64,000 nt of DNA from a virus (IMGVR_UViG_3300031993_000015); one strand, 5' to 3'. Counted from the first letter of the stretch, positions 5,759 through 56,170 are shown. The notes: generated by a model from the letters alone, not told the origin. Numbers and translations: made by a program.

Positions 5759-5783
5759 GATTTTCAACCTGAAGTTCAAAATC
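5759..5783. repeat. Dispersed 23-bp palindrome, copy 1 (intergenic)
   Basis: GATTTTCAACCTGAAGTTCAAAATC. Confidence 0.8.
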
Positions 5784-5873
5784 CGGTTCCCACATTTTCA
5801 TAGGGACTTTTGGGGCACTTACGCCATTTTTCTGAGGCACTTTTGTAAGTGCCTATTTTTGTGTAGTTTAGGG

Positions 5874-5908
5874 CTTAAAATAGGGGGAAAATGCGGCATA
5901 GTAAGATG
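5874..5908 (+). promoter_or_regulatory. Phage promoter-like motif, copy 1
   Basis: CTTAA-N16-GGCATA-N5-ATG. Confidence 0.65.
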
Positions 5909-5948
5909 TCCCTGTATTTCGTAAACCCAACTGCAAAGGAGGTGTCAC

Positions 5949-6125
5949 ATGACACGAAAAGAGTACTTACAGGAAAAGCTGGCGCGTGTCGAGCGCGACA
6001 TCGAAGCAGTGAACTCCAATCCAAATCGCGGTTTCCGCGATGACGAGAGTCTCTGCTACGAGGCCGCTGCTATTCAGAAGGAGATCGACGAGCTTGAAAA
6101 GCAGGAGGCGCAGGATGAAAACTAA
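5949..6125 (+). CDS. Small coiled-coil hypothetical protein (58 aa, below the ORF-track cutoff)
   Basis: AAGGAGGTG RBS; MTRKEYLQEKLARVERDIE... Confidence 0.7.
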   Translation: MTRKEYLQEKLARVERDIEAVNSNPNRGFRDDESLCYEAAAIQKEIDELEKQEAQDEN

Positions 6126-6390
6126 GTTCTGTGTGTACTGCCGTGCATTGCCGCCGTCTTGTGACTGGAGAAAGCCGCTCTGCCAGTGTGACAAGAAACT
6201 CATTGATGATCCTGATTGCGATGATTGCAAGGAGTTTCTGGCTTTAGACCCGGATCAGTGCAAAGGCTGCTCTCATTACAGCCCAGACGGCGTAACTAAT
6301 GGTCGTTGGGGGAAGTGCTCAGAAAAGGGCACGGTGCTGTACGGAGCAGATTGCCCTAAGTACGATCCGAAACAGGAGCAGGCCGACTGA
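6115..6390 (+). CDS. Cys-rich, probably metal-binding small protein
   Basis: GGAGG RBS; CVYC, CQC, CDDC, CKGC. Confidence 0.65.
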   Translation: MKTKFCVYCRALPPSCDWRKPLCQCDKKLIDDPDCDDCKEFLALDPDQCKGCSHYSPDGVTNGRWGKCSEKGTVLYGADCPKYDPKQEQAD

Positions 6391-6412
6391 GGTCTCGTTC
6401 CAAAGACAAACA

Positions 6413-6449
6413 GGGCCCGATGTAGTGGAGAAACATCGGGCTCTTTTTT
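6413..6449 (+). terminator. Rho-independent terminator
   Basis: GCCCGATGT/ACATCGGGC stem followed by a T6 tract. Confidence 0.75.
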
Positions 6450-6461
6450 AGCCTGTTTGAG

Positions 6462-6497
6462 CTTAATTATAGGGTTTTTTAGGGCAGTATATAATGA
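6462..6497 (+). promoter_or_regulatory. Phage promoter-like motif, copy 2
   Basis: CTTAA-N16-GGCAGT-N5-ATGA. Confidence 0.7.
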
Positions 6498-6499
6498 CG

Positions 6500-6750
6500 T
6501 AAAAACCAATTACGTTGACTACCATCCAGGGTGAAAATCCCCTTGCAGGCCGGGCTGTGTGGCGAACGGTGCCCTTAGCATTGACGGATGGATTGGTCGC
6601 CGGGGTTCGGTAATGACCCGTGAGTCTGGGACGCTCACAAAGCCGATTTGCTGCCAGGTTCTGGGGAGAGTGCCCTATACCAGACACTTGGCAGCGCTTG
6701 TTGATTTCCTGTTCATGTTCACCAATAATAACCATCCCAGAAGGGATAGA
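6500..6750 (+). ncRNA. Candidate structured RNA or long structured 5' leader
   Basis: Nested stems ACCAAT/ATTGGT, CCATCC/GGATGG, GGG-TGAAAAT-CCC, GTGAG/CTCAC, GCTGCCA/TGGCAGC, TCTGG/CCAGA between the promoter and the ATG at 6764. Confidence 0.4.
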
Positions 6751-6763
6751 AAGGATCGTAATC

Positions 6764-7294
6764 ATGAACATCAGCAACATCCTCACCACCGCCCTCAAGA
6801 CCCTCAATGAGATCGCACCGGGTTTCGACCCGTTGAAAGATCATCGTGCCGGTGACACGGTCAAGGGTTCGAGCCGCTTTAACGACACGATCAAAGACAT
6901 CAATGATGTCATCGTGTTGGCTGAGCACGCAGATTTCTATGCGATGCAGCCTGGCTTCGGCGGTGCCGTCTGCTTGATCTTCCAGGCAGCTGGCGTGGTT
7001 GGTGTCGCGACAACTGTTGAAACCATCGAAGATGAAGATTATGAATTGCGTCTTCATCATGGTTGCCTGCAGCCCTTCGGGGATGTGCAGGAGGTTCGTC
7101 GAGATGCCAAACTCTTCAGCATCGTGCTGACGCCTGAGAAGACAGCGAACGGAATCGAGTATGCGCTCGCAAGCGCATATCCCGGTCGTCCTGACGAACC
7201 GCCCAAAGATGAGGACCGCGAGGGACTCTCTGAGGGTCAGCGTCTCAGTGCTGCCGAAGTGAAGCGGCGCGGCTTGCGTCCGAAACAGGCATAA
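6764..7294 (+). CDS. Hypothetical protein
   Basis: GAAAGGA RBS; MNISNILTTALK... Confidence 0.75.
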   Translation: MNISNILTTALKTLNEIAPGFDPLKDHRAGDTVKGSSRFNDTIKDINDVIVLAEHADFYAMQPGFGGAVCLIFQAAGVVGVATTVETIEDEDYELRLHHGCLQPFGDVQEVRRDAKLFSIVLTPEKTANGIEYALASAYPGRPDEPPKDEDREGLSEGQRLSAAEVKRRGLRPKQA

Positions 7295-7383
7295 GTCTGT
7301 TCGGCGTAGGCATGCCCATCCGGGGCAAAGAAAACACAGTACAAACTGAAAGGAGGAATCCCTGTGTTTTCTTTTAGTCTGTA

Positions 7384-7920: not shown

Positions 7921-7930
7921 GAGGTGACAC

Positions 7931-20006: not shown

Positions 20007-20040
20007 GAGCTCCTGGCCGTAAGGCCGGGGGCTTCTTTTT
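20007..20040 (+). terminator. Terminator between convergent rtcB and HTH genes
   Basis: AGCTCCTGGCC-GTAA-GGCCGGGGGCT followed by a T tract. Confidence 0.75.
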
Positions 20041-20320
20041 ACACTTTAGGTGGACCGAACTGGATCAGGCGCTCGATGTCTTTCTTATCGTAGAACCTGT
20101 TGGCGTGGCTGATCTTGATTTCCCGGATCCATCCCTTGTTCACATACCGGCGCAGCGTCGGCCGGCTGCATCCCAGCATCCGAAGTGCCGCAAGGGGTCT
20201 CACTGTCTCGCATTCTCTGATATCGAAAACGACATCCAGGATCGCCTTGGATTCTGCCTTGGTCACTGTCTTGTCCCATGCGAGAACCCTGCAGATGACC
20301 CATTTGGTGATATTCTTCAT
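20039..20320 (-). CDS. MerR/excisionase-like helix-turn-helix protein
   Basis: AALRMLGCSRPTLRRYVNKGWI...RFYDKKDIERL; AGGAGG RBS; the only convincing minus-strand gene. Confidence 0.75.
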   Translation of the reverse strand: MKNITKWVICRVLAWDKTVTKAESKAILDVVFDIRECETVRPLAALRMLGCSRPTLRRYVNKGWIREIKISHANRFYDKKDIERLIQFGPPKV

Positions 20321-20663: not shown

Positions 20664-21242
20664 ATGAAACATACCGACTTCTTCAACATGATAGTCCAGG
20701 AAAGCGGCGTCATCAAGACAGACGACGAAGGCAACAGCGTTTGCACATCCTGTCACGGCACAGGCAAGCACTACGAAGCATCTGTCCAGCATCATAAGAA
20801 TTGCGCCTTCATGAAGGCTGTCAATCAGCTCACGAAACTGATGCCCGACAAAAATGAACTTCAAGTTGAAAATTCGATCACGGTCGGCATGATGCTCCCG
20901 TATCTGTCCGAGATGTGCCCGGAAGAGATCGAGAAAGCCAAGGATCTGGCCGACTGCATGCAGGCCGCCGAGAACCCGGCGCAGCGTGCCCATGTCGCCG
21001 ATTTGGTCACGTCCTGGTGCCGGTCTGTGAAGCAGGGAATCCTGGCGGCTGTCATCCAGAGTGGATTACCGGACAGCAAGGCGCTTCTGACGTTCCGCAA
21101 CTATCTGATCTTCGAGAAGAGCAACACCAACGAGTCTCTGCGGATCGCCCTGGCGCTGTTGTCGCTGAACAAAAACATCGAGGCGCTCCTGCCGACGTTT
21201 TATAAGCTGCTGACAGGCAAGTACCCGAATTACAAGCGCTGA
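20664..21242 (+). CDS. Hypothetical protein (CTSC...HHKNC possible Zn site)
   Basis: GAGGA RBS; codon bias. Confidence 0.7.
   Translation: MKHTDFFNMIVQESGVIKTDDEGNSVCTSCHGTGKHYEASVQHHKNCAFMKAVNQLTKLMPDKNELQVENSITVGMMLPYLSEMCPEEIEKAKDLADCMQAAENPAQRAHVADLVTSWCRSVKQGILAAVIQSGLPDSKALLTFRNYLIFEKSNTNESLRIALALLSLNKNIEALLPTFYKLLTGKYPNYKR
20851..20875. repeat. Dispersed 23-bp palindrome, copy 2 (intragenic, left arm degenerate)
   Basis: AAAATGAACTTCAAGTTGAAAATTC. Confidence 0.7.
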
Positions 21243-32912: not shown

Positions 32913-33911
32913 ATGAACTCTCTTGAACTTCTTGCAGTCGTTGCCGCCCAGGGCATGGTCAAGACTGCTGCCCCTCTTCCCGGACGCTTCCTCGCCGGCG
33001 GCAAGTCGGCGGATGAACAGCTGACCGAAGATCTCATGAACGACTACTGGGCTCGTATGCGTGCTGGCGATGCCAATGCGCAGGCTCCCGCCGACGAGGA
33101 CACCAGCGTTGGTCGCTTCGGCCGTTCCGCTGCCGATACAGGCGTTGACCTGGCCACGATGGCCGGTGCCTACGGCGGCTGGAGAGGCGGTTCTCGTCTC
33201 GGCGACGCTATCGCAAATCGCGTCGGCGGCCGTATCACTGGTCTGGCTGACCGCGCTGGCGCTGCTATCCAGGATCGTCTTGGACGCGCTGGTACGAATC
33301 TCGAAATCGGTGCCGGTCGTGTTACCAGAGGCCTGACCAATGGCGCTGAAAGACTGGCTGGCAATCTCGAAAATGCCGGTCGCAATGTCGGTCGTCGCGC
33401 CGGCCGTGCTGCTGGTACTGTGAAGGGCAACCTCCGCGCTCTGCCTTACAAGGCTCCGCGCCTTACATCGCGCATCGGCAATGGTCTCAGACTTCCTGCC
33501 GAAGGACTCGCTCAGTTCCCGACTTTGCGCAACCGCGTCTATCCCGGACAGCTCGGAAATCCGACTGCTGTTGATGCAGTCAAGGGCTACGGCAAGCGTC
33601 TGGCTCAGGGTACCAAGGGCAACATGGCTGCTCGTGGTGCTGCTCGCGGTGCTCGTGCTGGTGCTGCTGCCGGTCGTGGCGTCACTCGTGGTGCCGGTGC
33701 TCTCGCCAATGGTGCGAACACTGCTGCCAATGCGATCTCCAGAGGCAGTGCTGCCGCTGGTCGTGGTGTTGGTCGTGGTCTGTCTGCTGCCGGTCGCGGT
33801 GCGGTCAGGGCTATCAAACCCGCTATGGGTGGTGCCGGTGCTGTTGCACTTGGTACACTGTCCAATCTGGCTGCCAACTACGCAGCGGATCGTATCTTCG
33901 GTCAGGGCTGA
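32913..33911 (+). CDS. Putative virion protein, Gly/Ala/Arg-rich amphipathic repeats
   Basis: GMVKTAA; AGRGVxRG repeats. Confidence 0.55.
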   Translation: MNSLELLAVVAAQGMVKTAAPLPGRFLAGGKSADEQLTEDLMNDYWARMRAGDANAQAPADEDTSVGRFGRSAADTGVDLATMAGAYGGWRGGSRLGDAIANRVGGRITGLADRAGAAIQDRLGRAGTNLEIGAGRVTRGLTNGAERLAGNLENAGRNVGRRAGRAAGTVKGNLRALPYKAPRLTSRIGNGLRLPAEGLAQFPTLRNRVYPGQLGNPTAVDAVKGYGKRLAQGTKGNMAARGAARGARAGAAAGRGVTRGAGALANGANTAANAISRGSAAAGRGVGRGLSAAGRGAVRAIKPAMGGAGAVALGTLSNLAANYAADRIFGQG

Positions 33912-33916
33912 CGCAG

Positions 33917-33939
33917 ATTTTCAACTTCAAGTTGAAAAT
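33917..33939. repeat. Dispersed 23-bp palindrome, copy 3 (perfect, intergenic)
   Basis: ATTTTCAACTT-C-AAGTTGAAAAT. Confidence 0.85.
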
Positions 33940-33941: not shown

Positions 33942-33973
33942 AGAGGACTCCTCATTGGGGTCCTCTTTCTTTT
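33942..33973 (+). terminator. Rho-independent terminator upstream of the large RNAP gene
   Basis: AGAGGACTCC/GGGGTCCTCT followed by TTCTTTT. Confidence 0.7.
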
Positions 33974-34016
33974 ATAGTAGAATGATACGCGGAGACTACA
34001 TAAGAGGAGAATAACT

Positions 34017-37000
34017 ATGCCTGATGCACCTGTTTCACCGATACAAGCTGCCGGTACTGCCATGACCAATATCCGGCTCACACCGGAAAAACCGCTCAAG
34101 ACCGCAGCTGACTGGGTGCGCGATATGCGCATGTCACCCAGTGTGAACAAGACCACAACAGGTGTGGACACTGCTCAGGTGAACGGCGAGTTGATGCTCG
34201 CTACCTCAAAGCGTCTACTCGGTATTTCCAGGGGCAAGCAGGAACCAGACCCGAAGGACTCCCTGGAGTTTCAGCGGTTCTATGGCCCAGCCGAGTACTT
34301 TGCAGAACACGTGCTTCGTGACGGCAACAAACTGGGGCGCAACATCCTGTGGAAAGCAACAAACGTTGGCAACCTGGATTTCATGCCAGTCAATGCGCTG
34401 GACAAGCACATCAGTGACGTCTACTACGACAGCAAGCTCGCCCAGATGATCGACGGTTCCTCTCCACTGGAAACAGTTGATGCCTCCTACAAGACCACCC
34501 GTATCGGTGAAGGCGGCGTTGGAGACCTTGATTCAGCTCCTGACGAGATGCGCACAGTGCAGCCATCCTTCCTCGGTTTTGTAGATCCGGTCCGCAGTCC
34601 GGAGAGCTTCCGCGTCGGGTTGGATGTCTATATGACTAAGAATGTTATGAAGGGATCCGACGGAAAACTGTACCAGAAATTCATCAATGCACATACAGGC
34701 AAGGAAGAGCTGGTCGATTCCGAGACCATCGCGAAATCTGTTGTGACAACGCCTGAGATGATGCACTCCAAGACCAAATCGGTGTTCGCTATGGGCGGCC
34801 CGACTGGCGTCCGCATCGTTCCTCGCAAGGACGTTGACTACTACCTGCCCAGAGCAGATGAAGCCTACAGCATGTCTTCCAACATGGTGACGATGCCGTC
34901 TGCAGTCATCGGCATGCGACTCCTGATGGGTTGTCTGCATCCGGACACGAACGTACTGGTTGCGGATGATCACAACATGATCTCCATGAAGCCGGCCAAG
35001 TATCTGACCGCGCACAACCAACGCATCCCAGGCATGACCAGCGAGTTCAAGACCGCCTGCTACGATATGCAGAATACAATCGCCAAGCTGACACCGAAGC
35101 CGCGCTGGTTCAAGAAGATTGTCACAAAGTCCGGCCGAGTCCTCGTCACCAGTTATGACCATCGCTGGCCCGTTCTCATCAACGGCAAAATGACTCTGGT
35201 CCAGGCACGTGACTTGAAACCTGGCGATACTATCCTGCGCTCTGCTTTCCGCGATGTACCGAATCGGCGCACGTTCCTGAACAAACATCTCATCACGAAG
35301 GATGTTGCCTTCTTCCTGGGACTCCTCTGTAGATCCGCCAAGAGCAACAAGCGTGGGTCTGTCACGTTCCGCTACAAGTGTGGTGCTGACGTCAGGATTC
35401 GTGATGCCATTCATTATGTTTGGGGTGACTGCAAGCCGGTTATCCGGCAGTATAAGAAAGACGGGTTCTACTGCATGACTGTGCGCTGCGAAGCGCTTTG
35501 GCAGTTTGTCGAAGACCACATCGGTTTCACAGACAGCACCCGTGACATCCCATCCGAGATTCTCAGCACTTACGCAGAGATCGTTGCCGAGTTCCTGAAC
35601 GGGTACACTTGCGATGACACTATGATGGGTACAGACAGCAACGAGGACATCTGGATTTTGTTCATTCCGAACATGAAGGTGCGCGACGAGCTGTCCTTCC
35701 TGTTCGCCCGTATTGGTACTGACACGCTGTACCGCGATGCTCCTGGTGCAGATCCCAATCATGTCGAGATTGCACTGAAGATCAGCGACACTTCCAGGCT
35801 CTGGAACGACATGTACAAAGACACCATCAAGTACGTCTGGGAAGGCCCGCGCTGTCCTATCATGGTTGACATCGACATCAACGACAACATGTATGCAGTC
35901 GCCAACGGCATCGTGACGCACAATTCCAAGTACCCGCTGCAGGCCATTTCGCTGGAACACAGAGAGGCGCCGCTTGTGCGTACTCTTGACGAGGCCTCCG
36001 GCAAGGACATGTCAACACTGGTCGGCAAGTTCCTGGGAGCCAGGTTTGCACCACAGGGTGGCGTCGTCACGGCAGTCCGCAAGGATCGCATCGACGTCAT
36101 CTGGGACGACGGCAGCAAGGGTGCGGTTCCTCTGTATGTGAATTTCCCGATGAACGCCAAGGGCTTCATCAACAATACACCGGTCATCAAAGCCGGTATG
36201 CCATTCAAGAAAGGCGACATCCTGGCCAGTTCCAACTACACGGACAAGGACGGAACGGCTGCTCTTGGTATCAACCTGAAGTCCGGCTGGATCAGCTGGA
36301 AGGGCGGCACTTATGAAGACGCTGTTGTCATCAGCGAGGAAGCCGCCAAGAAGCTGACCAGCACGACCATGTATAACACATCGGTCGATCTGGATAAGAC
36401 CATAAGCCTGGGCAAGAAGAACTACATCACCTGGAAGCCTGCCGAGTACACAAAGGAGCAGATGGAACAGCTGGACGACAACGGTATAGTTCGACCTGGC
36501 ACTGTACTGCACAAGGGCGACCCGATGATTCTGGCTGTCCGTACATCGGAACCCAGTCCAGGTACGATGGGTAAGCGCATCCTGACAGATCTGTCCGAGA
36601 CGTGGGATCATGACCATGAAGGCATCGTGACAGATGTTGTCAAGACGCGCAAGGGTGTCAAGGTCTTTACGACTGTGACTGCTCCGGCGGAAGTCGGCGA
36701 CAAGATTGCCGGTCTGCACGGCAACAAGGGCACGATTGCTCAGATTCTGCCAAAGGAACAGATGCCGCAGACCAAGCAGGGTACCCCGCTTGATATCTGT
36801 TTCAGTCCTTTGGGAGTTACCAGCCGCAACAATACGGCGCAGCTCTATGAGGCGCTGCTCGGCAAGGTTGCGAAGAAGACCGGACAGATTCAGACTTTGC
36901 CGGCGTTCTTTGAAGGCGACTTGCATGACTATGTCGAAGGCAAGCTGAAAGAAGCGCATGTACATGCTGACGATGACCTGGTAGATCCGGAGACAGGTCG

Positions 37001-47308: not shown

Positions 47309-48766
47309 ATGATGAAGAAAAGTTTCCTCCCTGAGTCCTTCAACTTCGATGTCCAGCCGGTAGAGATCATCGGCCTGGGCTCCAAAGGGCTTGACAAGAC
47401 GGCGATGGTGAAACGCGCCAGCGCGTTCGATGATGTCATCGACAAACTGGAGAAGAAAGCCAACCGCACGTATCTGCATGTCATCACGACCGGTGCATAT
47501 GAGCAGTACGGCCCGAACATGAACGGTGATGGCTGGAACGGTGAGTCCTTTGAACTCAAGTTCCCGCACCCGGAGAACATGTCGAAGAAAGCGATGGTTC
47601 TCGACGGCGGCCTGTCCAAGTATCACGATGATACATACATGAAGGACGGCGCTGTGTACCAGGAGCACCAGACTAAGACTGCCGGCGTGGATCCGTCCGG
47701 CGAAGTGGTCGCTGCCAGGTACAATCCGATGATGAAACGCGGCGAACTCATTATTGCCGTGGATACTGAGAAATGGGCGCCCAGGCTCCAGAAGAAAGCC
47801 AAGGGCGAGAACATCTATCTCAGCATCGGCGCATCTGTTCCTCACGACATTTGTACCATTTGCGGACGCCAGGCCAAGACAGCCAGTGAGCACTGCAGTC
47901 ACTTCAAGATGCACCGTGGCGAAGTCTATGACTGCGGCGTTCGCTCCTGCGTGATGAACGACCGGCCGGATTTCTATGACATCTCTGGTGTGAATGTGCC
48001 GGCCGACAAGATCGCGTTCGTTCTACAGGAAGTCGGTCACGGCGATAAGCTGACCAAGACCAGCTCCTTGCACGACATCATGCAGCAAGCGACACAGACA
48101 GTCGGTGTCCGTCCTCCGATGGTGCTCACGAAGGCTGCCATGATCCTGGGCAAGCTGGCCCGCATGGAGAAGCAGATCGAGGGTATCGTCGAGGGCGACA
48201 AGAAGCCTGATAAGGACGCTTTTGAACACGAAGATGACGCAGAGAAAGATTTTGAACTTGAAGTTCAAAATTATCCTGCCGATGAGGTGATCGACGGTGC
48301 GAACCGCAAGGGCATCCTGCTGACTCCAGGCATGCTGTTCCGTTTGCTTGGCAAGGAATGCTCTGATCCGGATAACGCGCTGAAGGACTGTGACGACGAA
48401 TCCTGTGGCGATCTGTCATGCATGATGCGTGAGCTGGAGGATGATGAGGATGTCAATGATGAGCTGCTGGACGGTTCTTTCGACCAGCATCCGCCTGTGG
48501 ATCTGAACCTCGACAGCATTCTGGAGAAGTTCGTTCCGATGTTCGGGATGACGGACCCCGCTGTCAATACACGGGTTATCCACATCACAATCGTCGGCGC
48601 TCCGAAACACGGTACTGTAGACAAGAAGGCGTCTCTGAATAAGTTCGCACAGGAAGCCCTGCGCAGGACCTATGCCAGATACCTCATCAGTTTTGCTGCT
48701 CAGAACAACGACAGCACCTGCATGAACGCCCTCATGAAAATAGCTGGAATCGGGAAACGCGGCTGA
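47309..48766 (+). CDS. Prohead (capsid maturation) protease with Zn-finger insert
   Basis: NMNGDGW, VYQEH, LSIGASVPHDICTICG..CSH, FYDISGVNVPADKIA; located upstream of scaffold and capsid genes. Confidence 0.72.
   Translation: MMKKSFLPESFNFDVQPVEIIGLGSKGLDKTAMVKRASAFDDVIDKLEKKANRTYLHVITTGAYEQYGPNMNGDGWNGESFELKFPHPENMSKKAMVLDGGLSKYHDDTYMKDGAVYQEHQTKTAGVDPSGEVVAARYNPMMKRGELIIAVDTEKWAPRLQKKAKGENIYLSIGASVPHDICTICGRQAKTASEHCSHFKMHRGEVYDCGVRSCVMNDRPDFYDISGVNVPADKIAFVLQEVGHGDKLTKTSSLHDIMQQATQTVGVRPPMVLTKAAMILGKLARMEKQIEGIVEGDKKPDKDAFEHEDDAEKDFELEVQNYPADEVIDGANRKGILLTPGMLFRLLGKECSDPDNALKDCDDESCGDLSCMMRELEDDEDVNDELLDGSFDQHPPVDLNLDSILEKFVPMFGMTDPAVNTRVIHITIVGAPKHGTVDKKASLNKFAQEALRRTYARYLISFAAQNNDSTCMNALMKIAGIGKRG
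48249..48271. repeat. Dispersed 23-bp palindrome, copy 4 (perfect, intragenic)
   Basis: ATTTTGAACTT-G-AAGTTCAAAAT. Confidence 0.85.
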
Positions 48767-48831
48767 TTACTTGCCGTGTTTTCATTTGATAGAACACCAA
48801 ACCCTGGATTACAACATAAAGGAATCCACTT

Positions 48832-49977
48832 ATGAGCAATCAACTCCAGACCAAGGCGAACCGCGTTGCCGAACTGCTCGCGCAGTACGGTCTCAACAAG
48901 GAAGCCAAACAGACTATCACGCACACCAATCTCCTGGCTCAGAACAATCTCGGTCGCGAGATGACCAATGAGATCCACGAGAACGAAGAAGGCGTCCAGG
49001 CCGATACCGAAGCGGCGGAGAACAAACCCACCGCCAAGATCGACGCCATCCCGAACGCCCAGAACCTGAACACCTCTGCGGAGCAGGCCCTCGCCAACAC
49101 CGGCAGCACAGTCGAGACCCAGGAATCCGACGGCTCCAGCGCCGAAATGCCTGCTGAACAGGCCAAGAGCGCTGCGGCCTTTGCCCAGGTCCTCAAGCAG
49201 ATTCAGGACAAGAAGGCTGCTGCGAAGAAGGAAGAAGATTCCTTCATCACAGCTACTGAAGTGTTCGCCAAGTGGGCGTCTCTCGGACCGCGCTCCACGC
49301 AGGCTGACATCGACGCCGCGACTGCTTCTCTCCAGAAGCTCGCCTCTGTCAACCCGGCCTTCACCGCGACTCGTGACAACATCATCGCCATGAAGAAGTA
49401 CGCGGAAGCGGAAGAACTCGCCGAAGCTGCTGACATCGCTCCCGAAGACGCCGCTGCGGCTCTCGACGCCGCTGTCGAAGCGAATCCGGAAATGGATGCC
49501 GAGATCCTCGACGAAGCCAACGGCGAAGCGGTTGCCGATCTGGCGGATGCTGAACAGGAAGTCGGCGAACTTACCGACGGCGCCCAGATGCTCGCTGACG
49601 GCGCTTCCCAGATCCTCGACGCCGATGTCACTCCCGACGACATCGCCGACGCTCTCGATACCGTCACCGAAATGGCTGACGAAATGGGCGTCGATCCCAT
49701 CGAACTCATCCAGGCTGCTGCTGAAGAAATCCAGCAGGGCGAAGAGCCCACTGAAGAAGACATGGCGAACGCCGAAGAACTCGTTGCGTTTGCTGAAGAG
49801 CAGGGCATGACCCCGGATGAACTCATTCAGGAAATCGCAGCTTCCATCGAAGCTGATGAAATGGGCGGAGAAGAGCCCGAAGCCACGGAAGAACCGATTG
49901 AGAAGGCAGCTTCGCTGCAGAAACAGTCGCACAGTCCCCGTGTGGCCTACGTGCTCGAACAGCTCAAGAACGCTTGA
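48832..49977 (+). CDS. Probable scaffolding/core protein
   Basis: Very acidic, Ala/Glu-rich, strong codon bias, multiple K-x-A motifs, between protease and capsid genes. Confidence 0.6.
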   Translation: MSNQLQTKANRVAELLAQYGLNKEAKQTITHTNLLAQNNLGREMTNEIHENEEGVQADTEAAENKPTAKIDAIPNAQNLNTSAEQALANTGSTVETQESDGSSAEMPAEQAKSAAAFAQVLKQIQDKKAAAKKEEDSFITATEVFAKWASLGPRSTQADIDAATASLQKLASVNPAFTATRDNIIAMKKYAEAEELAEAADIAPEDAAAALDAAVEANPEMDAEILDEANGEAVADLADAEQEVGELTDGAQMLADGASQILDADVTPDDIADALDTVTEMADEMGVDPIELIQAAAEEIQQGEEPTEEDMANAEELVAFAEEQGMTPDELIQEIAASIEADEMGGEEPEATEEPIEKAASLQKQSHSPRVAYVLEQLKNA

Positions 49978-49989
49978 GGAGACCCGCAC

Positions 49990-50427
49990 ATGGCAGAACA
50001 GGCAATGGAAAAGCTCGCATCTGAGCTGATTGAGCGCCTGGCCGCCGTGGAGACTGAGAACAAATCTCTGCGCAAGGCCAACGAAGATCTTCGCGCCCTG
50101 ACGCAGCAGATGTCCACAGTCAAGCAGGCTTCCCAGGAAATCAAGCAGGTCGATGAGGACCTGCTTGACTCCACCTGCAAGAACCTCGTGAAGAGCGGCG
50201 CTCTCCGTGAGGACCAGGTGGAACAGGCGAAAGCGATCTTCAAGACAGACATGAATGCCGGCCTGACTGTCATTCAAAGTCTTCTTGACGAGCACGCTCA
50301 AGTAAAGACTGCTGCGGAACAGGCTTCCCTCGCGGGTGGCACTGTCGTCCACATCAGTCAGAACACACAGCGCAGCCCGGAAGATGAGTGCATCGACCGC
50401 ATGCGCAAAACACTCGGCCTTCATTAA
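49990..50427 (+). CDS. Small coiled-coil scaffold-like protein
   Basis: MEKLAS, VKQAS, VKTAA. Confidence 0.55.
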   Translation: MAEQAMEKLASELIERLAAVETENKSLRKANEDLRALTQQMSTVKQASQEIKQVDEDLLDSTCKNLVKSGALREDQVEQAKAIFKTDMNAGLTVIQSLLDEHAQVKTAAEQASLAGGTVVHISQNTQRSPEDECIDRMRKTLGLH

Positions 50428-50448
50428 ACCTACATAGGAGTTACAACA

Positions 50449-51090
50449 ATGGCTGGCTTCACACGCACCAACTTCGATCAGCAGATCAACCACGCTGCTG
50501 TTCTGGCGCACGGAGCACACCCGAAGTATCGCGTCGAACACGACGGCGAACTCGATGCCTCCACGCCTGAGAAGAAACTCGCGAACTCCGCTATCAAGCA
50601 GGGTTCGGTGGTTCACCTGGATTCGACCACTGGCAAGTACAACATCGGCCTCGCCGCTGCTTCCAGCATCAACTTCCCGGTGCCCTTCATCTCCCTCAAG
50701 AACGCTTTCGATCCCGATGTGACCACCGGCGTCGAAGGTGACACCCAGACCGTCCAGATCTACGGTTCCACCAACACCTTCACTTTCCCGAACCCCCGTC
50801 GCTCCACGTTCAGCGCCGTCGGCGGCAAGATCACGGCCATTCCGTGCACCGCCGGCTACGAAATCGAAACGACCGAGTTTGTCGAAGGCACCTATGCGAT
50901 CAACGACGCGCTCACCGCTGCCAGCTCCACTGACATCGGCAAGCTCAAAGTCGCGACCGCCGTGCCGTTCAAGGCGTCCGGTTCCGTGCCGATCCTCGGC
51001 TTCGTCTCCCGCGTTCCTTACACGAACGACGCTTATCTCCAGAAGCGCATCGGGTTCTGGACCAACTTCATCCCGGCTGTCGGGGCCTAA
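50449..51090 (+). CDS. Probable head decoration/cement protein
   Basis: Beta-rich, strong codon bias, immediately upstream of the capsid gene. Confidence 0.5.
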   Translation: MAGFTRTNFDQQINHAAVLAHGAHPKYRVEHDGELDASTPEKKLANSAIKQGSVVHLDSTTGKYNIGLAAASSINFPVPFISLKNAFDPDVTTGVEGDTQTVQIYGSTNTFTFPNPRRSTFSAVGGKITAIPCTAGYEIETTEFVEGTYAINDALTAASSTDIGKLKVATAVPFKASGSVPILGFVSRVPYTNDAYLQKRIGFWTNFIPAVGA

Positions 51091-51108
51091 TCCAAGGAGG
51101 ACTTCACT

Positions 51109-52068
51109 ATGGCTTGGGATCAAATCAAAGTTGCTTCCGTTTCTGAAGACATCCGCGCAAAGTTCGCCACCGGCGACAAGGACATGTGCAAGCAGGGCAC
51201 ACTCGCTGCCAACGACTACTTCCGCACAGAAATCCGCTCCAACGGCATCCGTCGTCAGATCACTCCGCCTGTCCAGGTCACGAAGGACATGTTCGACCCG
51301 TCCGAGACCTCCGACATTCCGATCATCTACGCCGAGGTCGCTCCTCGCTCGTCCGGCGCCTACATGGTCTCCTTCGAGACTGGCCCGAAGAACGAGAACA
51401 TCTACGGCAACAAGATCCGCATCGAACTCAACCGCATCATGACCAAGAAGTACAGCATCGACAAGATCCGTCTCGATGCCTACAAGATGCCGCTGCTTGA
51501 GATCCTCGAAGACCTGCTCCTCAAAGACATCATGGATGTCGAGGACAACGTCACCATCGGTCTCGACAAGGACATCTGCGGTCCTCTGAACACGGTCAAC
51601 CCCTGGATGGGCTGCCGTCGCTATGTCACCTGCGGTGGCATCAGCCGCGAAGCTCTCGTGCACCTCAAGAAGGGCATGCCTGTGGCTCCTGGTCATCTCA
51701 TGACCAAGAAGTTCCTTATGAACGACCTCACCTACTTCGATCTCGGCGCTCTCGACCGTACCGAAGTCGGCGGCGACATGGCGCAGGAAATGTTCGTCAA
51801 CGGCGTCACCACCTCCAAGATCCAGGGCATCGACACGGTCGTCACCATCAAGACCGACCTCATCCCGACCAAGGAAGTGTTCATCTACACCGATCCGATG
51901 TACTACGGCGGCTTCTACGTCTACAACGACGTCACGATGGTCGTCGATGAAGTCGATGACATCTGGATGACCTTCTTCGCCCATGAGTGCGTCGGCGCCT
52001 CCGTGGCCAACAGCCCCGGCGTTGCCCGTGCATCCCTCACCGGCACCCTCGTCGATTGGGAAGGCTAA
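51109..52068 (+). CDS. Major capsid protein (HK97-like)
   Basis: 319 aa, very strong codon bias, AAGGAGG RBS, followed by a terminator; EIRSNGIRRQITPP, FAHECVGASVAN; IKVAS leader. Confidence 0.7.
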   Translation: MAWDQIKVASVSEDIRAKFATGDKDMCKQGTLAANDYFRTEIRSNGIRRQITPPVQVTKDMFDPSETSDIPIIYAEVAPRSSGAYMVSFETGPKNENIYGNKIRIELNRIMTKKYSIDKIRLDAYKMPLLEILEDLLLKDIMDVEDNVTIGLDKDICGPLNTVNPWMGCRRYVTCGGISREALVHLKKGMPVAPGHLMTKKFLMNDLTYFDLGALDRTEVGGDMAQEMFVNGVTTSKIQGIDTVVTIKTDLIPTKEVFIYTDPMYYGGFYVYNDVTMVVDEVDDIWMTFFAHECVGASVANSPGVARASLTGTLVDWEG

Positions 52069-52977: not shown

Positions 52978-52980
52978 CAA

Positions 52981-53313
52981 ATGGCATCTTCCCTTTTCTA
53001 TGATCTGTACGGGCGCCTGCGCGGGGGACAGACGAGCAATCCTGTCGATGCGCCGATGCCGTATCAGATCAAATGCGTCACCAGCACGGAAGCCAGTACC
53101 GGCTACAAGACCGTGACGCGTTATACTCGTTTCAACGGAGACAACCAGCACAAGATCGGTATGTGGCGTGAGATCACAGTCTTCGACAACCAGGGCAACA
53201 TCACGGACTTCAAGCATGAGTTCACTGTGGACCTCTGGGCAAATGTCGAGGAAGAGACTGTGCGCTGGGTCCCGATCAACGAGTGCTGGGATTTCCCGGT
53301 CCAGAAGGATTGA
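52981..53313 (+). CDS. Hypothetical structural-region protein
   Basis: AAGGA RBS; packed operon. Confidence 0.65.
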   Translation: MASSLFYDLYGRLRGGQTSNPVDAPMPYQIKCVTSTEASTGYKTVTRYTRFNGDNQHKIGMWREITVFDNQGNITDFKHEFTVDLWANVEEETVRWVPINECWDFPVQKD

Positions 53314-53331
53314 AGCACAGGAGCGTGACAC

Positions 53332-53922
53332 ATGGACACTGTGAAAACACCATACATCATACAGCAGGGCAGGGTTCTGGCTCGTAGACCTGAAAAGGAC
53401 TATGAGACAACAGGCGCCAGTGAAGCCATCACGATTGCTTCTGTCAACGCGAATCTCACCTGCACACTCAATACAACCGCTCCATTTGTCGGCGTTGTAG
53501 ACAGCAACGGTATTCTCTGGCAACTGCCCAATCGTTGTGTCCAGTATGGTGAGTCCAGTGTCACGCTCAATCTCTCTGAAATCTACGAAACCAAACGCAT
53601 GATCTCCGTACCTGCTACGACAACAATCGCTCTGCAGGGCGGTGGATCCATGACATTCTCCCGCTACAAGGAATCCGATTCAGCCAGGGGCTTTGCCTGG
53701 AGAAACGGAACAGCCGCGATCTTCACAGATACGCTGGTTCCTGTAGCGGGTACCACTTTCTATACAGACCCACAGATGTCTGTCAGTGGCGGGACAACGA
53801 CAGCCTATGCAGCGCCGACAGCATCTGCATATCCAGGCGGCTGGAAAGCATTGTTCAGTGTTGTGCCAAAGCAGATCGCCTATGAGGTCATCAAGACTGG
53901 AACCTATGGTGAGAACCGCTAA
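53332..53922 (+). CDS. Hypothetical beta-rich protein carrying one copy of the fibre repeat
   Basis: FSRYKESDSARGFAWRNGTAAIFTD. Confidence 0.6.
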   Translation: MDTVKTPYIIQQGRVLARRPEKDYETTGASEAITIASVNANLTCTLNTTAPFVGVVDSNGILWQLPNRCVQYGESSVTLNLSEIYETKRMISVPATTTIALQGGGSMTFSRYKESDSARGFAWRNGTAAIFTDTLVPVAGTTFYTDPQMSVSGGTTTAYAAPTASAYPGGWKALFSVVPKQIAYEVIKTGTYGENR

Positions 53923-53948
53923 ACATATAACAGAGGACACATCCTATA

Positions 53949-54335
53949 ATGAACAATCTGACACTTGAAGAGATTGAAGCGCTGAGAGTAGCGCTTGCTC
54001 AGCCGCAGACATCCAATGCTGCAATCCTGATCTTTACAGGCATCATAGCCCTTTCAGGCTTCTTGTTTGTGATGTGGTGGATTCTCAGCATGAAACTGAA
54101 ACCAGTTGAAAAGCTGGAAACACAGATGTCCGAATTGACCAGCACTGTGAACGAGATGAAGAGCAACATGTGGTCAGAGTCTTCGCTCAACAACCTCGTC
54201 CAGCTCAAGCTCTTCCAGTATATCCAGACGCATGAGCAGAACTGCCCCTGCCGTAAGGCTCTCACCAACAAGGCAACGGCTCCTGCTCCATCTATCAACC
54301 CCAGTGTCACAAGCAACAACATCCCGATTCCGTGA
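53949..54335 (+). CDS. Single-TM plus coiled-coil protein (holin-like?)
   Basis: AAILIFTGIIALSGFLFVMWWIL followed by heptads. Confidence 0.4.
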   Translation: MNNLTLEEIEALRVALAQPQTSNAAILIFTGIIALSGFLFVMWWILSMKLKPVEKLETQMSELTSTVNEMKSNMWSESSLNNLVQLKLFQYIQTHEQNCPCRKALTNKATAPAPSINPSVTSNNIPIP

Positions 54336-54345
54336 GGTCTGAACT

Positions 54346-55251
54346 ATGGCCGACATCTGCTTGACTGAAAACATAGGCGGCCAGGGCGGTATTGCCGGCG
54401 GCGGTGGTAACGAGGGTCAGTCCTCCATCGTCAGCAACGGCATCGGCGCGAACTCCTACGGCTACCCGGTCCTGGAAACAGTGACCGGGGTTACGCATAC
54501 CTTCACAGTCCAGCTGACGAAGGACTATACCGGCGCGATTCCGCTGGACATGACAGGCATCACCAAGGTCGTGTTCGAAGCACGGCCTACGATGAACTCG
54601 TCTGCACGGAAGATACAGAAAGAGTGTACTTTCGATGCAGACGGAAAGGTCACGCTGGAGCTCGGACCGGATGAGGTGAACCACAATAATGGCGTCTGGT
54701 ACGGCGAGTTCAAGCTCTACGATGAGAACGATGTGTTGCGACACGACCACCGTGCCTACCTGTGTATCAGGAAGGGCATGGACGGCAGCAACGACAGCGA
54801 CCCGAACACGATCACCGCGATGGACGTTCGTCTGGCTATCATGGATGTGTCCCCGGAAGCCAACGTCCTGCTCGATGACCTGGAGTTCTCCGATGTCCAG
54901 ATCTACGCTGCCGTTCAGCGTTGCATTGACGAGTGGGAAGAGAAACCGCCAACGCTGCAGACGCACTTCAACTCCAAGAACTTCCCATTCCGCGAACATC
55001 TCATCAAGGGTGTCGTTGGCTATCTCATGCAGCAGATCGCCTATAAGTACACTCGCAACCGCATGCAGTATAATGCAGCTGGTCTTACTCTGGACACCAA
55101 TGACAAGGGACCGCAGTATGCAGCCCTTGCACAGGCTGCCAGAGGCGAGTGGATCCACTTTGTCGATATGAAGAAAGCTGAACTGAACATGGGCGAGTGC
55201 TATGGCGTGATCGACATTCCGCAGTTCGGCGGGCTCACCACCTGGTGGTAA
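54346..55251 (+). CDS. Probable head-tail adaptor/neck protein
   Basis: Ig-like N-terminal half, helical C-terminal half (DVRLAIMD...EFSDVQI...); gene order. Confidence 0.45.
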   Translation: MADICLTENIGGQGGIAGGGGNEGQSSIVSNGIGANSYGYPVLETVTGVTHTFTVQLTKDYTGAIPLDMTGITKVVFEARPTMNSSARKIQKECTFDADGKVTLELGPDEVNHNNGVWYGEFKLYDENDVLRHDHRAYLCIRKGMDGSNDSDPNTITAMDVRLAIMDVSPEANVLLDDLEFSDVQIYAAVQRCIDEWEEKPPTLQTHFNSKNFPFREHLIKGVVGYLMQQIAYKYTRNRMQYNAAGLTLDTNDKGPQYAALAQAARGEWIHFVDMKKAELNMGECYGVIDIPQFGGLTTWW

Positions 55252-55252
55252 C

Positions 55253-56170
55253 ATGGCCGACAGCATCTTCACATCCTTTGTCTGTTCCATCCTGCCGAAC
55301 AATCACAGGCAGCTGTCCTGGAACGTACTTGCGGGGCTGACTTTTCCTGAGAATTTTCAACTTGAAGTTCAAAATTCCAGAGCAGGAGGTCCCTGGGAAG
55401 TACTTGCCCCGGATGTGAAGGATGTCTGTATCTGGGAAGACCCCAGGCTGCGTAACTACAACAAGTACATGAACGAGCATTACAGGCTGCGTCTGTATGT
55501 ACCAGGTGAGCAGGAAGGCGACGAGCCCCTGCAGGAGTACTTCTCGCCGATTGTTGCGGCCGGAACCACTGAGGCATGGCCGTTCAGCGCGGAAGCCAAG
55601 AACGTCGTGACACAGGTCGAGAAGCAGATCGAGATTTCCGGATGCACAGGTGTGCTGCTTAAAAAGAAGCACTGGGGTGTCCGTTGCCCAGACTGTACCG
55701 ACTTCGACAACCAGAACACTGTGAATGAGCACTGCCCGCGTTGTCTGGGAACCGGCTACGATGGTGGGTATTACCAGGGCATCAGTCTGTCAGTTCTGAA
55801 GGATACTCCGCAGACTGGTGAAGAGCAGAGTTTCGATGCCATTGAAGGTCACGAGACAATCACCGGCAAGTGCGTAGCGTTCCCCTGGATTCGCTACGGA
55901 GATGTCTGGGTCGAGGATGGCACGAACAAGCGCTTCTTTGTCCACAAGGTTACACCGGCATCCGTATACAAGCAGACTGTGCTGGTATATGCTTTCCAGA
56001 TGCGCCGTATAGAGTACACCGACATCATGTATGAGGTTCCTGCAGACGAGAAGGTCGAGATAAAAGACCTGTATCAGTCTGCGCAGGTCGCATATACACC
56101 GGAACTCGAAAAGACGCTGGAAGATCAGGCGATGTCTGACTGGCAGAAAGCATTGGAGGAACAGCTGTGA
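55253..56170 (+). CDS. Probable neck/head-closure protein with Zn finger
   Basis: CPDC...CPRCLGTGYDGGY; gene order. Confidence 0.5.
   Translation: MADSIFTSFVCSILPNNHRQLSWNVLAGLTFPENFQLEVQNSRAGGPWEVLAPDVKDVCIWEDPRLRNYNKYMNEHYRLRLYVPGEQEGDEPLQEYFSPIVAAGTTEAWPFSAEAKNVVTQVEKQIEISGCTGVLLKKKHWGVRCPDCTDFDNQNTVNEHCPRCLGTGYDGGYYQGISLSVLKDTPQTGEEQSFDAIEGHETITGKCVAFPWIRYGDVWVEDGTNKRFFVHKVTPASVYKQTVLVYAFQMRRIEYTDIMYEVPADEKVEIKDLYQSAQVAYTPELEKTLEDQAMSDWQKALEEQL
55353..55375. repeat. Dispersed 23-bp palindrome, copy 5 (intragenic)
   Basis: ATTTTCAACTT-G-AAGTTCAAAAT. Confidence 0.85.

What the first reader, a model, noticed from the sequence alone, without database searches (positions are those of the whole stretch)
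5759..55375. 23-bp AT-rich palindrome dispersed every 7-15 kb, including inside core genes
Seen: ATTTT(C/G)AACTT(C/G)AAGTT(C/G)AAAAT at about 5760, 20852, 33917, 48249 and 55353, with gaps of about 15.1, 13.1, 14.3 and 7.1 kb. Two copies are perfect 11-1-11 inverted repeats. Two are intergenic and three are in coding sequence (ORF 20664, protease, neck), where they use A/T-ending codons unlike their surroundings. Variation falls mostly at three S positions spaced 6 bp apart. Inference: DNA-level binding sites for a dimeric protein. Their position is not tied to promoters, which fits a parS/matS-like organising, segregation, ejection or packaging signal better than an operator. It does not match canonical parS (TGTTTCACGTGAAACA).
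Basis: partly seen in the sequence, partly recalled or inferred. Interest (0 to 1): 0.82.

Follow-up and report, generated by a model that had tools for sequence, protein, structure and literature searches.

The report
Evenly spaced palindromic docking sites in phage
A 178-kb uncultured phage and its relatives keep about 14 copies of one 23-base mirror-symmetric DNA word at unusually regular intervals, even inside genes; the copies are most likely docking sites for an unidentified paired DNA-binding protein, a kind of element seen in other phages but never explained.

Summary
The whole 178-kb phage genome holds 15, and the motif supplies its most over-represented 11-mers.

- Four related uncultured phages carry their own versions, with invariant frame ATTTT-nn-AC-N5-GT-nn-AAAAT. 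Several sit at orthologous places inside the same genes.
- Selection acts on the DNA. The motif codons are rare (P about 1e-5 given the peptide). In one gene the peptide changes (PSS to PGG) to follow the lineage's motif.
- It is not a hairpin: no compensating changes, weak folds, and perfect palindromes are in the minority.
- It has no polarity, so it is not a one-way promoter.
- Spacing is more even than random in four genomes (CV 0.35-0.46, P 0.0002-0.006).
- No ParA, ParB, integrase or topoisomerase II domain was found, so membership of parS or prophage stoperator systems is not supported.

Best reading: docking sites for a co-evolving two-fold symmetric phage protein that divides the chromosome into domains of about 13 kb. 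A global roadblock regulator is nearly as likely. The binder is unknown.

This scan has noted similar arrays in other phages (for example e1-1940433, e1-5813736). The published analogue is the unexplained 17-bp dyad repeat of Cluster O mycobacteriophages.

The parts
5760..5782 (.). Palindrome copy ATTTTCAACCTGAAGTTCAAAAT, intergenic
   Evidence: 1 mismatch. It lies 96 nt after the stop of ORF 4449-5663 and before the region of small gene cassettes.
20851..20873 (.). Palindrome copy AAAATGAACTTCAAGTTGAAAAT inside ORF 20664-21242 (codons about 63-70, KNELQVEN)
   Evidence: A lineage-specific palindrome sits at the same codons in G001, G005 and G002 (the last only 22% aa identity) and in loci L055-L062. 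V-E of VEN are among the few invariant columns of the protein family.
33917..33939 (.). Perfect palindrome copy, 5 nt after the stop of ORF 32913-33911
   Evidence: The order palindrome, terminator hairpin, TATAGTAG is kept in G001 (82946) and G002 (6016).
33942..33966 (+). Terminator-like hairpin plus T-run directly after the palindrome
   Evidence: genome coordinates 107206-107230 in window orientation; sequence.
33973..33980 (+). TATAGTAG box, a separate candidate promoter upstream of the RNAP gene at 34017
   Evidence: TATAGTAR occurs 8 times on the + strand and 0 on the - strand in the genome. It is conserved before the RNAP gene in L011.
48249..48271 (.). Perfect palindrome copy inside ORF 47309-48766 (residues 314-321, DFELEVQN)
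   Evidence: Orthologous copies in G001 (101648), G005 (63274) and G008 (53045), each in that lineage's version.
55353..55375 (.). Palindrome copy inside ORF 55253-56170 (residues 34-41, NFQLEVQN)
   Evidence: Orthologous copies in G001 (108830) and G005 (76573). Absent at this place in G004, which lacks the motif family.
20039..20320 (-). Small HTH_17/MerR_1 protein, the only Pfam-recognisable sequence-specific DNA binder besides the sigma factor; weak candidate reader
   Evidence: Syntenic minus-strand orthologues in G001, G005, L057, L058, L060 and L062, and present in G008. AlphaFold model pLDDT 86.5; best fold matches are BldC, Pukovnik Xis and MerR winged helices.
20664..21242 (+). ORF of unknown function (CxxC...H...C motif) that carries a site in its own coding sequence
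   Evidence: Found in G000, G001, G005 and G002; not found in G004 or G008 by tblastn. No Pfam or PHROG family.

Best explanation
Shown: a 23-bp two-fold symmetric double-stranded DNA word (25 bp with a purine before and a pyrimidine after) occurs 15 times in this 178-kb phage genome. It is kept by selection on the DNA itself, also inside genes. In related phages it is replaced by lineage-specific versions, partly at orthologous places. It is spaced more evenly than chance allows. Inferred: each copy is the docking site of a phage-encoded protein that binds as a symmetric pair, one subunit per half-site ATTTT-n-n-AC with half-site centres about 11 bp apart, and that evolves together with its sites. 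Inferred with less certainty: the array works at the scale of the whole chromosome. Bound proteins act as regularly spaced anchor or boundary points that divide the one-directionally transcribed genome into domains of about 13 kb. This could serve compaction, bridging or insulation of replicating DNA ahead of packaging. It works like matS-MatP or baculovirus hr-IE1 arrays rather than like a classical promoter-linked operator.
For: Real and non-random. DNA-level selection: the motif codons have probability about 1e-5 given the peptide. At genome site 33211 the frame differs, and the peptide changes from QFSTPSSIS to KLSTPGGIS in G001, following the motif change. Co-evolution: G000 has ATTTTSAAC-TTSAA-GTTSAAAAT, G001 ATTTTCYAC-YYSRR-GTRGAAAAT, G002 and G005 ATTTT(C/A)TAC-N5-GTA(G/T)AAAAT, and G008 ATTTTATCC-TTGGA-GTACAAAAT. 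Changes are mirrored at positions 7 and 17. Double-stranded rather than hairpin: positions 6 and 18 are complementary in only 4 of 15 sites, variant half-sites are never compensated, G-T and A-C mispairs are equal (19 v 17), and mean RNA MFE is -2.3 kcal/mol. No polarity: 20 left-arm against 17 right-arm deviations over four genomes. In G008 the asymmetric form occurs in both orientations between + strand genes. Even spacing: CV 0.46 (P 0.003) in G000, 0.37 (0.0003) in G001, 0.35 (0.0002) in G005 and 0.43 (0.006) in G008. Independence from gene context: copies lie in CDS, at junctions and in gaps. A 6-kb stretch that an earlier, unchecked first-reader note describes as holding many promoter-terminator units has a copy only at its edge. 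No flanking conservation at a fixed distance.
Against: No binder is identified. Only 12 Pfam families hit 129 small proteins, and the one HTH candidate has a Xis/BldC-like fold. No ParB, ParA, topoisomerase II or Toprim domain is present. Even spacing could follow from regular operon sizes. The genomes share orthologous sites, so their spacing tests are not independent. Enrichment at gene boundaries and next to terminators fits a role in transcription equally well. No protein-DNA, looping or packaging data exist for any member of this clade.
Confidence: 0.38

Rival explanations
1. Operators of a global transcription regulator that acts as a roadblock or insulator, like stoperators. A symmetric repressor bound at about 14 sites stops or delays elongating RNA polymerase at domain borders or at the 5' ends of late genes, giving temporal control in a genome where all genes point one way.
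For: Sites are enriched at gene boundaries (29 of 49 within 200 nt of a start against 35% at random, P 5e-4). About 16 of 49 start 0-6 nt after a stop codon. At least 13 abut a terminator hairpin, before or after it. Four of five in-CDS sites in G000 lie in the first 200 nt of the gene. Lineage-specific consensus is what stoperators show (PMC6550527). This is the most common role of palindromic sites (own knowledge).
Against: No integrase or partition genes, so there is no prophage to silence. Far fewer sites than transcription units. No fixed relation to the TATAGTAR boxes or to any flanking motif. Roadblocks inside essential structural genes would need to be lifted. Boundary enrichment can be explained by tolerance alone. 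Even spacing is not predicted.
Confidence: 0.3
2. Multiple replication origins or helicase-loading sites. A symmetric initiator loads two helicases head to head at AT-rich palindromes spread evenly to shorten replication time, as at papillomavirus, SV40 or herpesvirus origin palindromes and baculovirus hr regions (own knowledge).
For: Two-fold symmetry without polarity. Outer A/T arms tolerate A-T swaps, as expected for easily melted DNA. Even spacing. Independence from gene context.
Against: No GC- or AT-skew switch at the sites in five genomes (a weak test). No flanking AT-rich unwinding region or iterons. Fourteen origins are without precedent in phages.
Confidence: 0.1
3. Promoters of the phage's virion-packaged multisubunit RNA polymerase, which in jumbo phages recognise phage-specific AT-rich motifs (PMC7598289).
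For: AT-rich, highly conserved, differs from phage to phage, and is the most over-represented word in the genome. The phage encodes a multisubunit RNAP. The distant cultured relative Arash packs RNAP subunits and sigma in the virion (PMC10585845).
Against: The element is symmetric, with arms equally conserved. In G008 its asymmetric form points both ways among + strand genes. Several copies sit directly upstream of terminators or deep inside genes. A separate strand-specific box, TATAGTAR (8:0), exists.
Confidence: 0.07
4. Recognition sites of a site-specific nicking or cutting enzyme, comparable to localized nicks of T5 or phiKMV-like phages or to packaging cuts (own knowledge).
For: Dispersed, lineage-specific sites of about 20 bp at intervals of several kb. 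A small protein with a PD-(D/E)xK-like motif, seen by eye only, is shared by the motif-bearing genomes and was not found in G004.
Against: Known nick sites are asymmetric and on one strand. A symmetric site would be cut on both strands. Pfam does not support the nuclease call. The assemblies run through the sites.
Confidence: 0.05
5. RNA or single-strand DNA hairpin: a terminator, a processing site, or a REP-like 3' stabiliser.
For: Palindromic; often in 3' untranslated positions next to terminators.
Against: No compensatory changes. Positions 6 and 18 are complementary in only 4 of 15 sites. Mean MFE is -2.3 kcal/mol, with several sites at 0. The alternating CGC/GCG pattern that breaks the dyad is preferred (9 of 15 against 25% expected, P 0.004). 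No Rfam match.
Confidence: 0.03
6. parS-type centromere of a plasmid prophage, like the dispersed centromere sites of phage N15 (own knowledge).
For: Dispersed palindromes, some inside late genes.
Against: No ParB_N, ParA (AAA_31), tyrosine or serine recombinase in the genome or its relatives. The nearest cultured relative is lytic (PMC10585845). The 'provirus' label of G001 is doubtful, because its ends join colinearly with G000.
Confidence: 0.03

Closest known systems
17-bp dyad repeats of Cluster O mycobacteriophages (5'-TGTTCGGNNNCCGAACA, 34 copies in Corndog; PMC4351075)
   Same: Dispersed dyad-symmetric repeat with a variable centre. About one third lie inside coding regions and many near gene 5' ends. 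The phages are not evidently temperate and have no integrase or parAB. The authors predict a dimeric binder acting in something other than transcription initiation. The function is unknown.
   Different: Here the word is longer (23 v 17 bp) and AT-rich in a 54% GC genome. It is about six times sparser (one per 12 kb v one per 2 kb), evenly spaced, and shown to change in step between lineages at orthologous in-gene places. The host and phage groups are unrelated.
Stoperators of Cluster A mycobacteriophages (L5 gp71-type repressors; PMC9283540, PMC6550527)
   Same: Many copies of one short site spread over the genome, mostly at gene junctions. The protein acts away from promoters.
   Different: Stoperators are 13-bp, asymmetric, oriented with transcription, read by a monomer, and serve prophage silencing. 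Here the sites are symmetric and without polarity, and the phages show no lysogeny genes.
matS-MatP, parS-ParB and OB-KorB arrays of bacteria and plasmids (own knowledge)
   Same: Palindromic sites of 13-16 bp, often inside genes, dispersed over tens to hundreds of kb. They are read by dimers that bridge or organise DNA.
   Different: No ParB-family domain is present; MatP was not tested. Those sites cluster in one chromosomal region rather than tiling the genome evenly. The sequence is unrelated.
Baculovirus homologous regions (hr) bound by IE1 dimers (own knowledge, not checked in a paper here)
   Same: Imperfect AT-rich palindromes of about 28-30 bp, distributed around a large viral genome. 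They are read by a viral dimer and act at a distance, as enhancers and possibly origins.
   Different: hrs are clusters of repeated units in a eukaryotic virus. Here the sites are single, and there is no sequence or protein relationship.
AT-rich early promoters of virion RNAPs of jumbo phages (PMC7598289)
   Same: A phage-specific, highly conserved AT-rich motif that is easy to find by word counting, in a phage with a multisubunit RNAP.
   Different: Those motifs are about 10 nt, directional and upstream of early operons. This one is 23 bp, symmetric, and found in late genes and upstream of terminators.

Membership tests
parS/ParB(-ParA) centromere | A ParB-family (ParB_N) reader encoded nearby or in the replicon | tested here: not met
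   PF02195 gives no match in the six-frame search of the whole 178-kb genome; controls were positive.
parS/ParB(-ParA) centromere | A partition ATPase (ParA/Soj type) | tested here: not met
   PF13614 gives no match at E <= 0.01.
parS/ParB(-ParA) centromere | 16-bp palindrome related to TGTTNCACGTGAAACA with abutting half-sites | tested here: not met
   Here the half-sites (ATTTTnnAC) are separated by 5 bp. Only a loose half-site likeness appears in G001 (TTTCCAC).
Cluster A stoperators | Asymmetric site oriented with the direction of transcription | tested here: not met
   The arms are equally conserved (20 v 17 deviations). The asymmetric form in G008 occurs in both orientations among + strand genes.
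Cluster A stoperators | Temperate phage with an immunity repressor (and integrase or parABS) | tested here: not met
   No tyrosine or serine recombinase and no ParA or ParB. A repressor as such could not be tested.
Cluster A stoperators | Many dispersed copies whose consensus co-varies between lineages | tested here: met
   15, 13, 14 and 10 copies in four genomes (7 more in the 52-kb fragment G002), with lineage-specific consensus.
Dispersed dyad repeats of unknown function (Cluster O type) | Short inverted repeat with a variable centre, tens of copies across the genome, in both intergenic and coding DNA | tested here: met
   compared with the description in PMC4351075. The copy number per kb is lower here.
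Dispersed dyad repeats of unknown function (Cluster O type) | Sequence or phage relatedness to Cluster O | tested here: not met
   The motif is unrelated (TGTTCGG arms v ATTTTnnAC). The nearest cultured relatives by RNAP are Salmonella phage Arash and Vibrio phages at 30% aa identity.
Phage RNAP promoter | Directional element at a fixed offset upstream of transcription units, co-oriented with genes | tested here: not met
   Symmetric; no flanking conservation; both orientations in G008; copies directly upstream of terminators and inside genes. Transcript 5' ends could not be tested.
RNA hairpin / intrinsic terminator / REP-like element | Base pairing kept by compensatory change; stable fold | tested here: not met
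   no Rfam family in the window.
Type II topoisomerase strong sites (phage-encoded enzyme) | Phage encodes a GyrA/ParC-type or Toprim-containing enzyme | tested here: not met
   PF00521 and PF01751 give no match in the genome. Host gyrase was not testable.

The most novel reading that the evidence does not exclude
The evenly spaced symmetric sites are the fixed points of a chromosome-scale machine in virion-RNAP phages: anchor, loop or origin sites that set a physical unit of about 13 kb for replication, compaction or packaging. The same principle would be realised with a different element in the distant cultured relative Arash, whose five near-identical 210-bp repeats sit 36 kb apart almost exactly (CV 0.07). 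Orientation arcs of the asymmetric versions in G008 and G005 hint that the array may even carry genome-wide polarity.
Probability: 0.25. Interest if true: 0.8.

Novelty: new variant of a known kind. Interest (0 to 1): 0.58.

Why it matters
Dispersed dyad repeats have been reported in phages (Cluster O) and noted repeatedly in this scan, but nobody knows what reads them or why.

This clade offers an unusually clean case:
- few sites;
- strong DNA-level selection that overrides codon use, and in one case protein sequence;
- lineage-specific versions that allow specificity-swap tests;
- statistically even spacing, which points to a function measured in physical distance along the chromosome rather than per gene.

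If the reader protein were found, it would define either a new type of global phage regulator or a new way of organising a large viral chromosome. The site versions would also give a simple marker for lineages within this uncultured phage group.

Tried and rejected
1. Exact G000 motif elsewhere: absent from the relatives; only six single chance hits in IMG/VR.
2. The generalised frame ATTTT-nn-AC-N5-GT-nn-AAAAT over IMG/VR is swamped by chance single hits, but it led to relative G008.
3. Hairpin reading: rejected.
4. Left-right asymmetry seen in G000 alone (7 v 2 arm deviations) disappears over four genomes, so I dropped my initial promoter idea.
5. Flanking conserved boxes at a fixed distance: none.
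6. Link to TATAGTAR boxes: only one conserved junction.
7. ParA/ParB, integrases, topoisomerase II and Toprim: none.
8. Origin test by skew switch: negative, but weak.
9. Mosaic breakpoints between G000 and G001 or G005 are not enriched at sites.
10. My own terminator finder was too strict to quantify terminator adjacency (one search failed); the adjacency statement rests on reading the flanks.
11. Binder search:
   - Pfam over 129 small proteins gives only sigma and one HTH_17 protein.
   - Genes present in motif-bearing genomes but not G004 give a long, uninformative list.
   - The HTH recognition helix is identical in G001 and L062 although their ORF20664 sites differ at position 17.
   - The HTH fold is Xis/BldC-like.
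12. Loose likenesses to CodY, DnaA, LexA/Cheo, FNR, phi29 p4 and Rok sites were considered from memory. None fits in spacing or consensus.
13. Arash and Vibrio phage D69 have no ATTTT-N13-AAAAT.
14. Logan contigs could not be scanned whole.

Full report
**The observation**

The pattern ATTTTSAACTTSAAGTTSAAAAT, with up to three mismatches, matches five times in the window: at 5760, 20851, 33917, 48249 and 55353. Dinucleotide-preserving shuffles gave no match at all. Outside the 23 bases the flanks do not align.

The window is the minus strand of a 178,489-bp virus record (53.6% GC) that CheckV rates complete. Read in the window's orientation, nearly all genes are on the + strand (165 of 180 in my codon-usage gene calls). 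Genome-wide there are 15 copies at up to four mismatches, and words of the motif are the most frequent 11-mers of the genome. A purine before and a pyrimidine after extend the dyad to 25 bp.

**Relatives**

The exact motif is absent from IMG/VR except for six single chance hits. It is also absent from the four relatives found through the RNAP protein. But aligning the flanks of each site with the closest relative shows a different palindrome at the same places. That relative is G001, with 82% aa identity in the RNAP.

Motif versions by genome:

| Genome | Size | Sites | Version |
|---|---|---|---|
| G000 | 178 kb | 15 | ATTTTSAAC-TTSAA-GTTSAAAAT |
| G001 | 164 kb | 13 | ATTTTCYAC-YYSRR-GTRGAAAAT |
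| G002 | 52-kb fragment | 7 | ATTTTCTAC-TNNNA-GTAGAAAAT |
| G005 | 176 kb | 14 | ATTTT(A/C)TAC-N5-GTA(T/G)AAAAT |
| G008 | 176 kb | 10 | ATTTTATCC-TTGGA-GTACAAAAT (asymmetric; some 22 bp) |
| G004 | 192 kb | 0 | none (RNAP 58% aa; reads through in-frame TAG) |

The invariant frame is ATTTT-nn-AC-N5-GT-nn-AAAAT. Position 7 and its mirror 17 change together between lineages: A/T, Y/R, T/A.

**The level of selection**

The in-gene copies at window 20851, 48249 and 55353, and at genome position 145095, share one frame and read F-x-L-x-V-x-N. I therefore tested whether a peptide, and not the DNA, is what is conserved. Three results say it is the DNA.

- The codons used are rare in this genome. Given the peptide, the chance of the motif codons is about 1e-5 per site.
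- The copy at genome position 33211 lies in another frame. There the peptide changes from PSS to PGG in G001, exactly as the DNA motif changes from AAGTTCAA to AGGTGGAA.
- In the ORF 20664 family the site persists in an orthologue with only 22% aa identity. V-E of 'VEN' (the right arm GTnGAAAAT) are among the few invariant columns of the protein family. Six further lineages each show their own version at those codons.

**The physical form**

A hairpin or cruciform is unlikely.

- Positions 6 and 18 are complementary in only 4 of 15 G000 sites.
- Variant half-sites are never compensated in the other arm.
- G-T and A-C mispairs are equally frequent, so neither strand is favoured.
- The 25-nt RNA folds average -2.3 kcal/mol, and several are zero.
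- G000 prefers the alternating pattern C-G-C or G-C-G at its three S positions (9 of 15 against 25% expected, P 0.004). This pattern breaks the perfect dyad.
- G005 and G008 likewise mostly pair two unlike half-sites.

This looks like selection against a stable stem while keeping two acceptable half-sites. The outer arms tolerate A-T swaps (AAATT, AATTT, AATAT) but no G or C. The half-site centres lie about 11 bp apart. Both features are typical of a dimer on double-stranded DNA; that is inference.

**Polarity**

In G000 alone the right arm looked better kept, which first suggested a promoter to me. Over four genomes the deviations are 20 left against 17 right. The asymmetric G008 version lies in both orientations between + strand genes. 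There is no conserved box at a fixed distance.

A separate, strictly + strand box, TATAGTAR (8:0), exists. It meets the palindrome at only one conserved junction (palindrome, terminator, TATAGTAG) before the RNAP gene. The element is therefore not a one-way promoter or terminator. This differs from the AT-rich directional early promoters of jumbo-phage virion RNAPs (PMC7598289).

**Placement**

Sites are enriched at gene boundaries.

- 29 of 49 lie within 200 nt of a start codon, against 35% at random (P 5e-4).
- About 16 of 49 begin 0-6 nt after a stop codon.
- Reading the flanks, at least eight sit 1-5 nt upstream of a terminator-like hairpin and about five directly after one.
- Four of five in-gene copies in G000 lie in the first 200 nt of the gene.

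This fits a role in transcription. It also fits the simple idea that a 23-bp constraint is best tolerated between genes, in linkers and near termini.

The spacing is more even than random placement.

| Genome or element | CV of gaps | P |
|---|---|---|
| G000 | 0.46 | 0.003 |
| G001 | 0.37 | 0.0003 |
| G005 | 0.35 | 0.0002 |
| G008 | 0.43 | 0.006 |

. No gap exceeds 28 kb in any of them. These genomes share several orthologous sites, so the four tests are not independent.

**What it is not a member of**

The genome and its relatives have no ParB_N, ParA-type ATPase, tyrosine recombinase or serine recombinase. The genome also has no GyrA/ParC-type or Toprim domain. G001's 'provirus' label is doubtful, because its two ends join colinearly with G000. 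The nearest cultured relatives by RNAP (30% aa) are the lytic Salmonella phage Arash and some Vibrio phages. Arash packs RNAP subunits and a sigma factor in its virion and shows no lysogeny genes (PMC10585845). So parS-type partition and prophage silencing by stoperators fail their defining features, although the array may still work like them. GC and AT skew do not switch at the sites, which is weak evidence against origins. Rfam finds nothing in the window.

**The reader protein**

Pfam recognises very little in this phage: 12 families among 129 small proteins. The only sequence-specific DNA binders it finds are the sigma factor and the small HTH_17/MerR_1 protein at window 20039-20320 on the minus strand. 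That gene is kept on the minus strand next to the ORF 20664 orthologue in G001, G005 and four metagenomic loci. It is also present in G008, and I found no convincing copy in G004.

- Its recognition helix is identical in G001 and L062, although their ORF 20664 sites differ at position 17.
- Its model (pLDDT 86.5) is closest to BldC and to mycobacteriophage Pukovnik Xis. From my own knowledge, these proteins bind direct repeats head to tail.

It remains a candidate only if its N-terminal helical hairpin makes a symmetric dimer. ORF 20664 itself carries a site in its own gene but is not found in G008. The binder is therefore unknown.

**Explanation**

That these are docking sites of a co-evolving symmetric protein I hold at about 0.85. 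For what the array does, two readings are close.

- I rank first, at 0.38, a chromosome-scale role as evenly spaced anchor or boundary points. Spacing is the one property that a per-gene regulator does not predict. The sites also ignore gene context and transcription direction, and they are far fewer than the transcription units.
- Second, at 0.30, is a global roadblock regulator of the stoperator type.
- Origins, RNAP promoters, nick sites, hairpins and centromeres follow with small shares.

**Comparison and novelty**

The closest published thing is the 17-bp dyad repeat of Cluster O mycobacteriophages. It has more than 30 copies, one third of them in genes. The phages are not temperate, a dimeric binder is predicted, and the function is unknown (PMC4351075). 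Stoperators share the dispersal and the co-evolution but are asymmetric, oriented and read by a monomer (PMC9283540, PMC6550527).

Earlier notes of this scan describe similar arrays in other phages. These include a palindrome of 21-23 bp about every 14 kb in a 176-kb gut phage, and 23 evenly spaced 23-bp sites in a 194-kb phage. I did not test those. The finding is thus a new variant of a known but unexplained kind. What this case adds is deep positional conservation inside genes, mirrored lineage switches, avoidance of perfect dyads, and quantified even spacing.

**Seen in passing**

Arash has five near-identical repeats of about 210 bp. Each is an AT-rich core between inverted CAAACGTTGTAACC, and they are spaced 33.8-39.7 kb apart around the genome (CV 0.07, P about 1e-4).

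Noticed in passing
Salmonella phage Arash OQ632216.1, about 26.6, 66.4, 100.1, 138.5 and 173.3 kb (loci L187, L189, L191, L192, L194): Five near-identical repeats of about 210 bp, each an AT-rich core flanked by inverted CAAACGTTGTAACC. They are spaced 33.8-39.7 kb apart around the 180.8-kb genome (CV 0.07, P about 1e-4). The Arash paper's main text has no mention of genomic repeats under the terms searched. They could be origins, strong promoters or another kind of evenly spaced genome element.
   Followed up: partly
G004 = IMGVR_UViG_3300045988_176357 (loci L024-L033): Orthologues of the window's genes at 47309-48766 and 55253-56170 contain several in-frame TAG codons, so this relative probably reads TAG as an amino acid. 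It lacks the palindrome family.
   Followed up: no
G004, for example 2261, 9200, 130203, 159809, 191787: About 12 copies of a repeat of about 250 nt (AAGAAAGTGAATTGC ... ATAGTCAGTGC) with internal hairpins. This may be a repeated structured RNA or a mobile element.
   Followed up: no
G008 = IMGVR_UViG_3300028048_000051 (L175-L183); G005 = IMGVR_UViG_3300045988_174965 (L039-L047): In G008 the asymmetric motif version points one way at 152-27 kb and the other way at 30-132 kb, forming two contiguous arcs (P about 0.07), although genes are + strand throughout. In G005 the base at position 6 on the + strand is A at eight contiguous sites and C at six contiguous sites (P about 0.005). G000 shows no such arcs. 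This may be a genome-scale polarity or may be chance.
   Followed up: partly
window 33973 and seven other + strand places in the genome: TATAGTAR occurs 8 times on the + strand and never on the - strand in G000 (7:1 in G001). This fits a separate promoter class, probably for the phage sigma factor or RNAP.
   Followed up: partly
L055:384 and L056:452 (ENA contigs; ORF 20664 orthologue at 91% aa identity): A close relative already has a hybrid site, AAAGTATACTCCAGGTTGAAAAT. It differs at seven positions from the G000 copy, a larger share than in the flanking bases shown, so the motif may evolve fast.
   Followed up: no
window 48700-51984, - strand, against + strand ORFs 48832-52068: A 1094-aa minus-strand ORF scores as coding in my codon model and overlaps four + strand ORFs. 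GC skew dips here. Neither side has a Pfam or PHROG match, so the true coding strand is unresolved.
   Followed up: no
L051:9739-12399 (-) and L052:2741-3649 (-), outside the window: An 886-aa protein with three glycosyltransferase family 8 stretches, and a patatin-like phospholipase. Both lie next to palindrome sites.
   Followed up: no
G001 (L015-L023), for example 12474, 33326, 56530: A second over-represented palindrome, ATCCTGCAGGAT, occurs about eight times (three exact copies, five with one mismatch), mostly inside genes.
   Followed up: no
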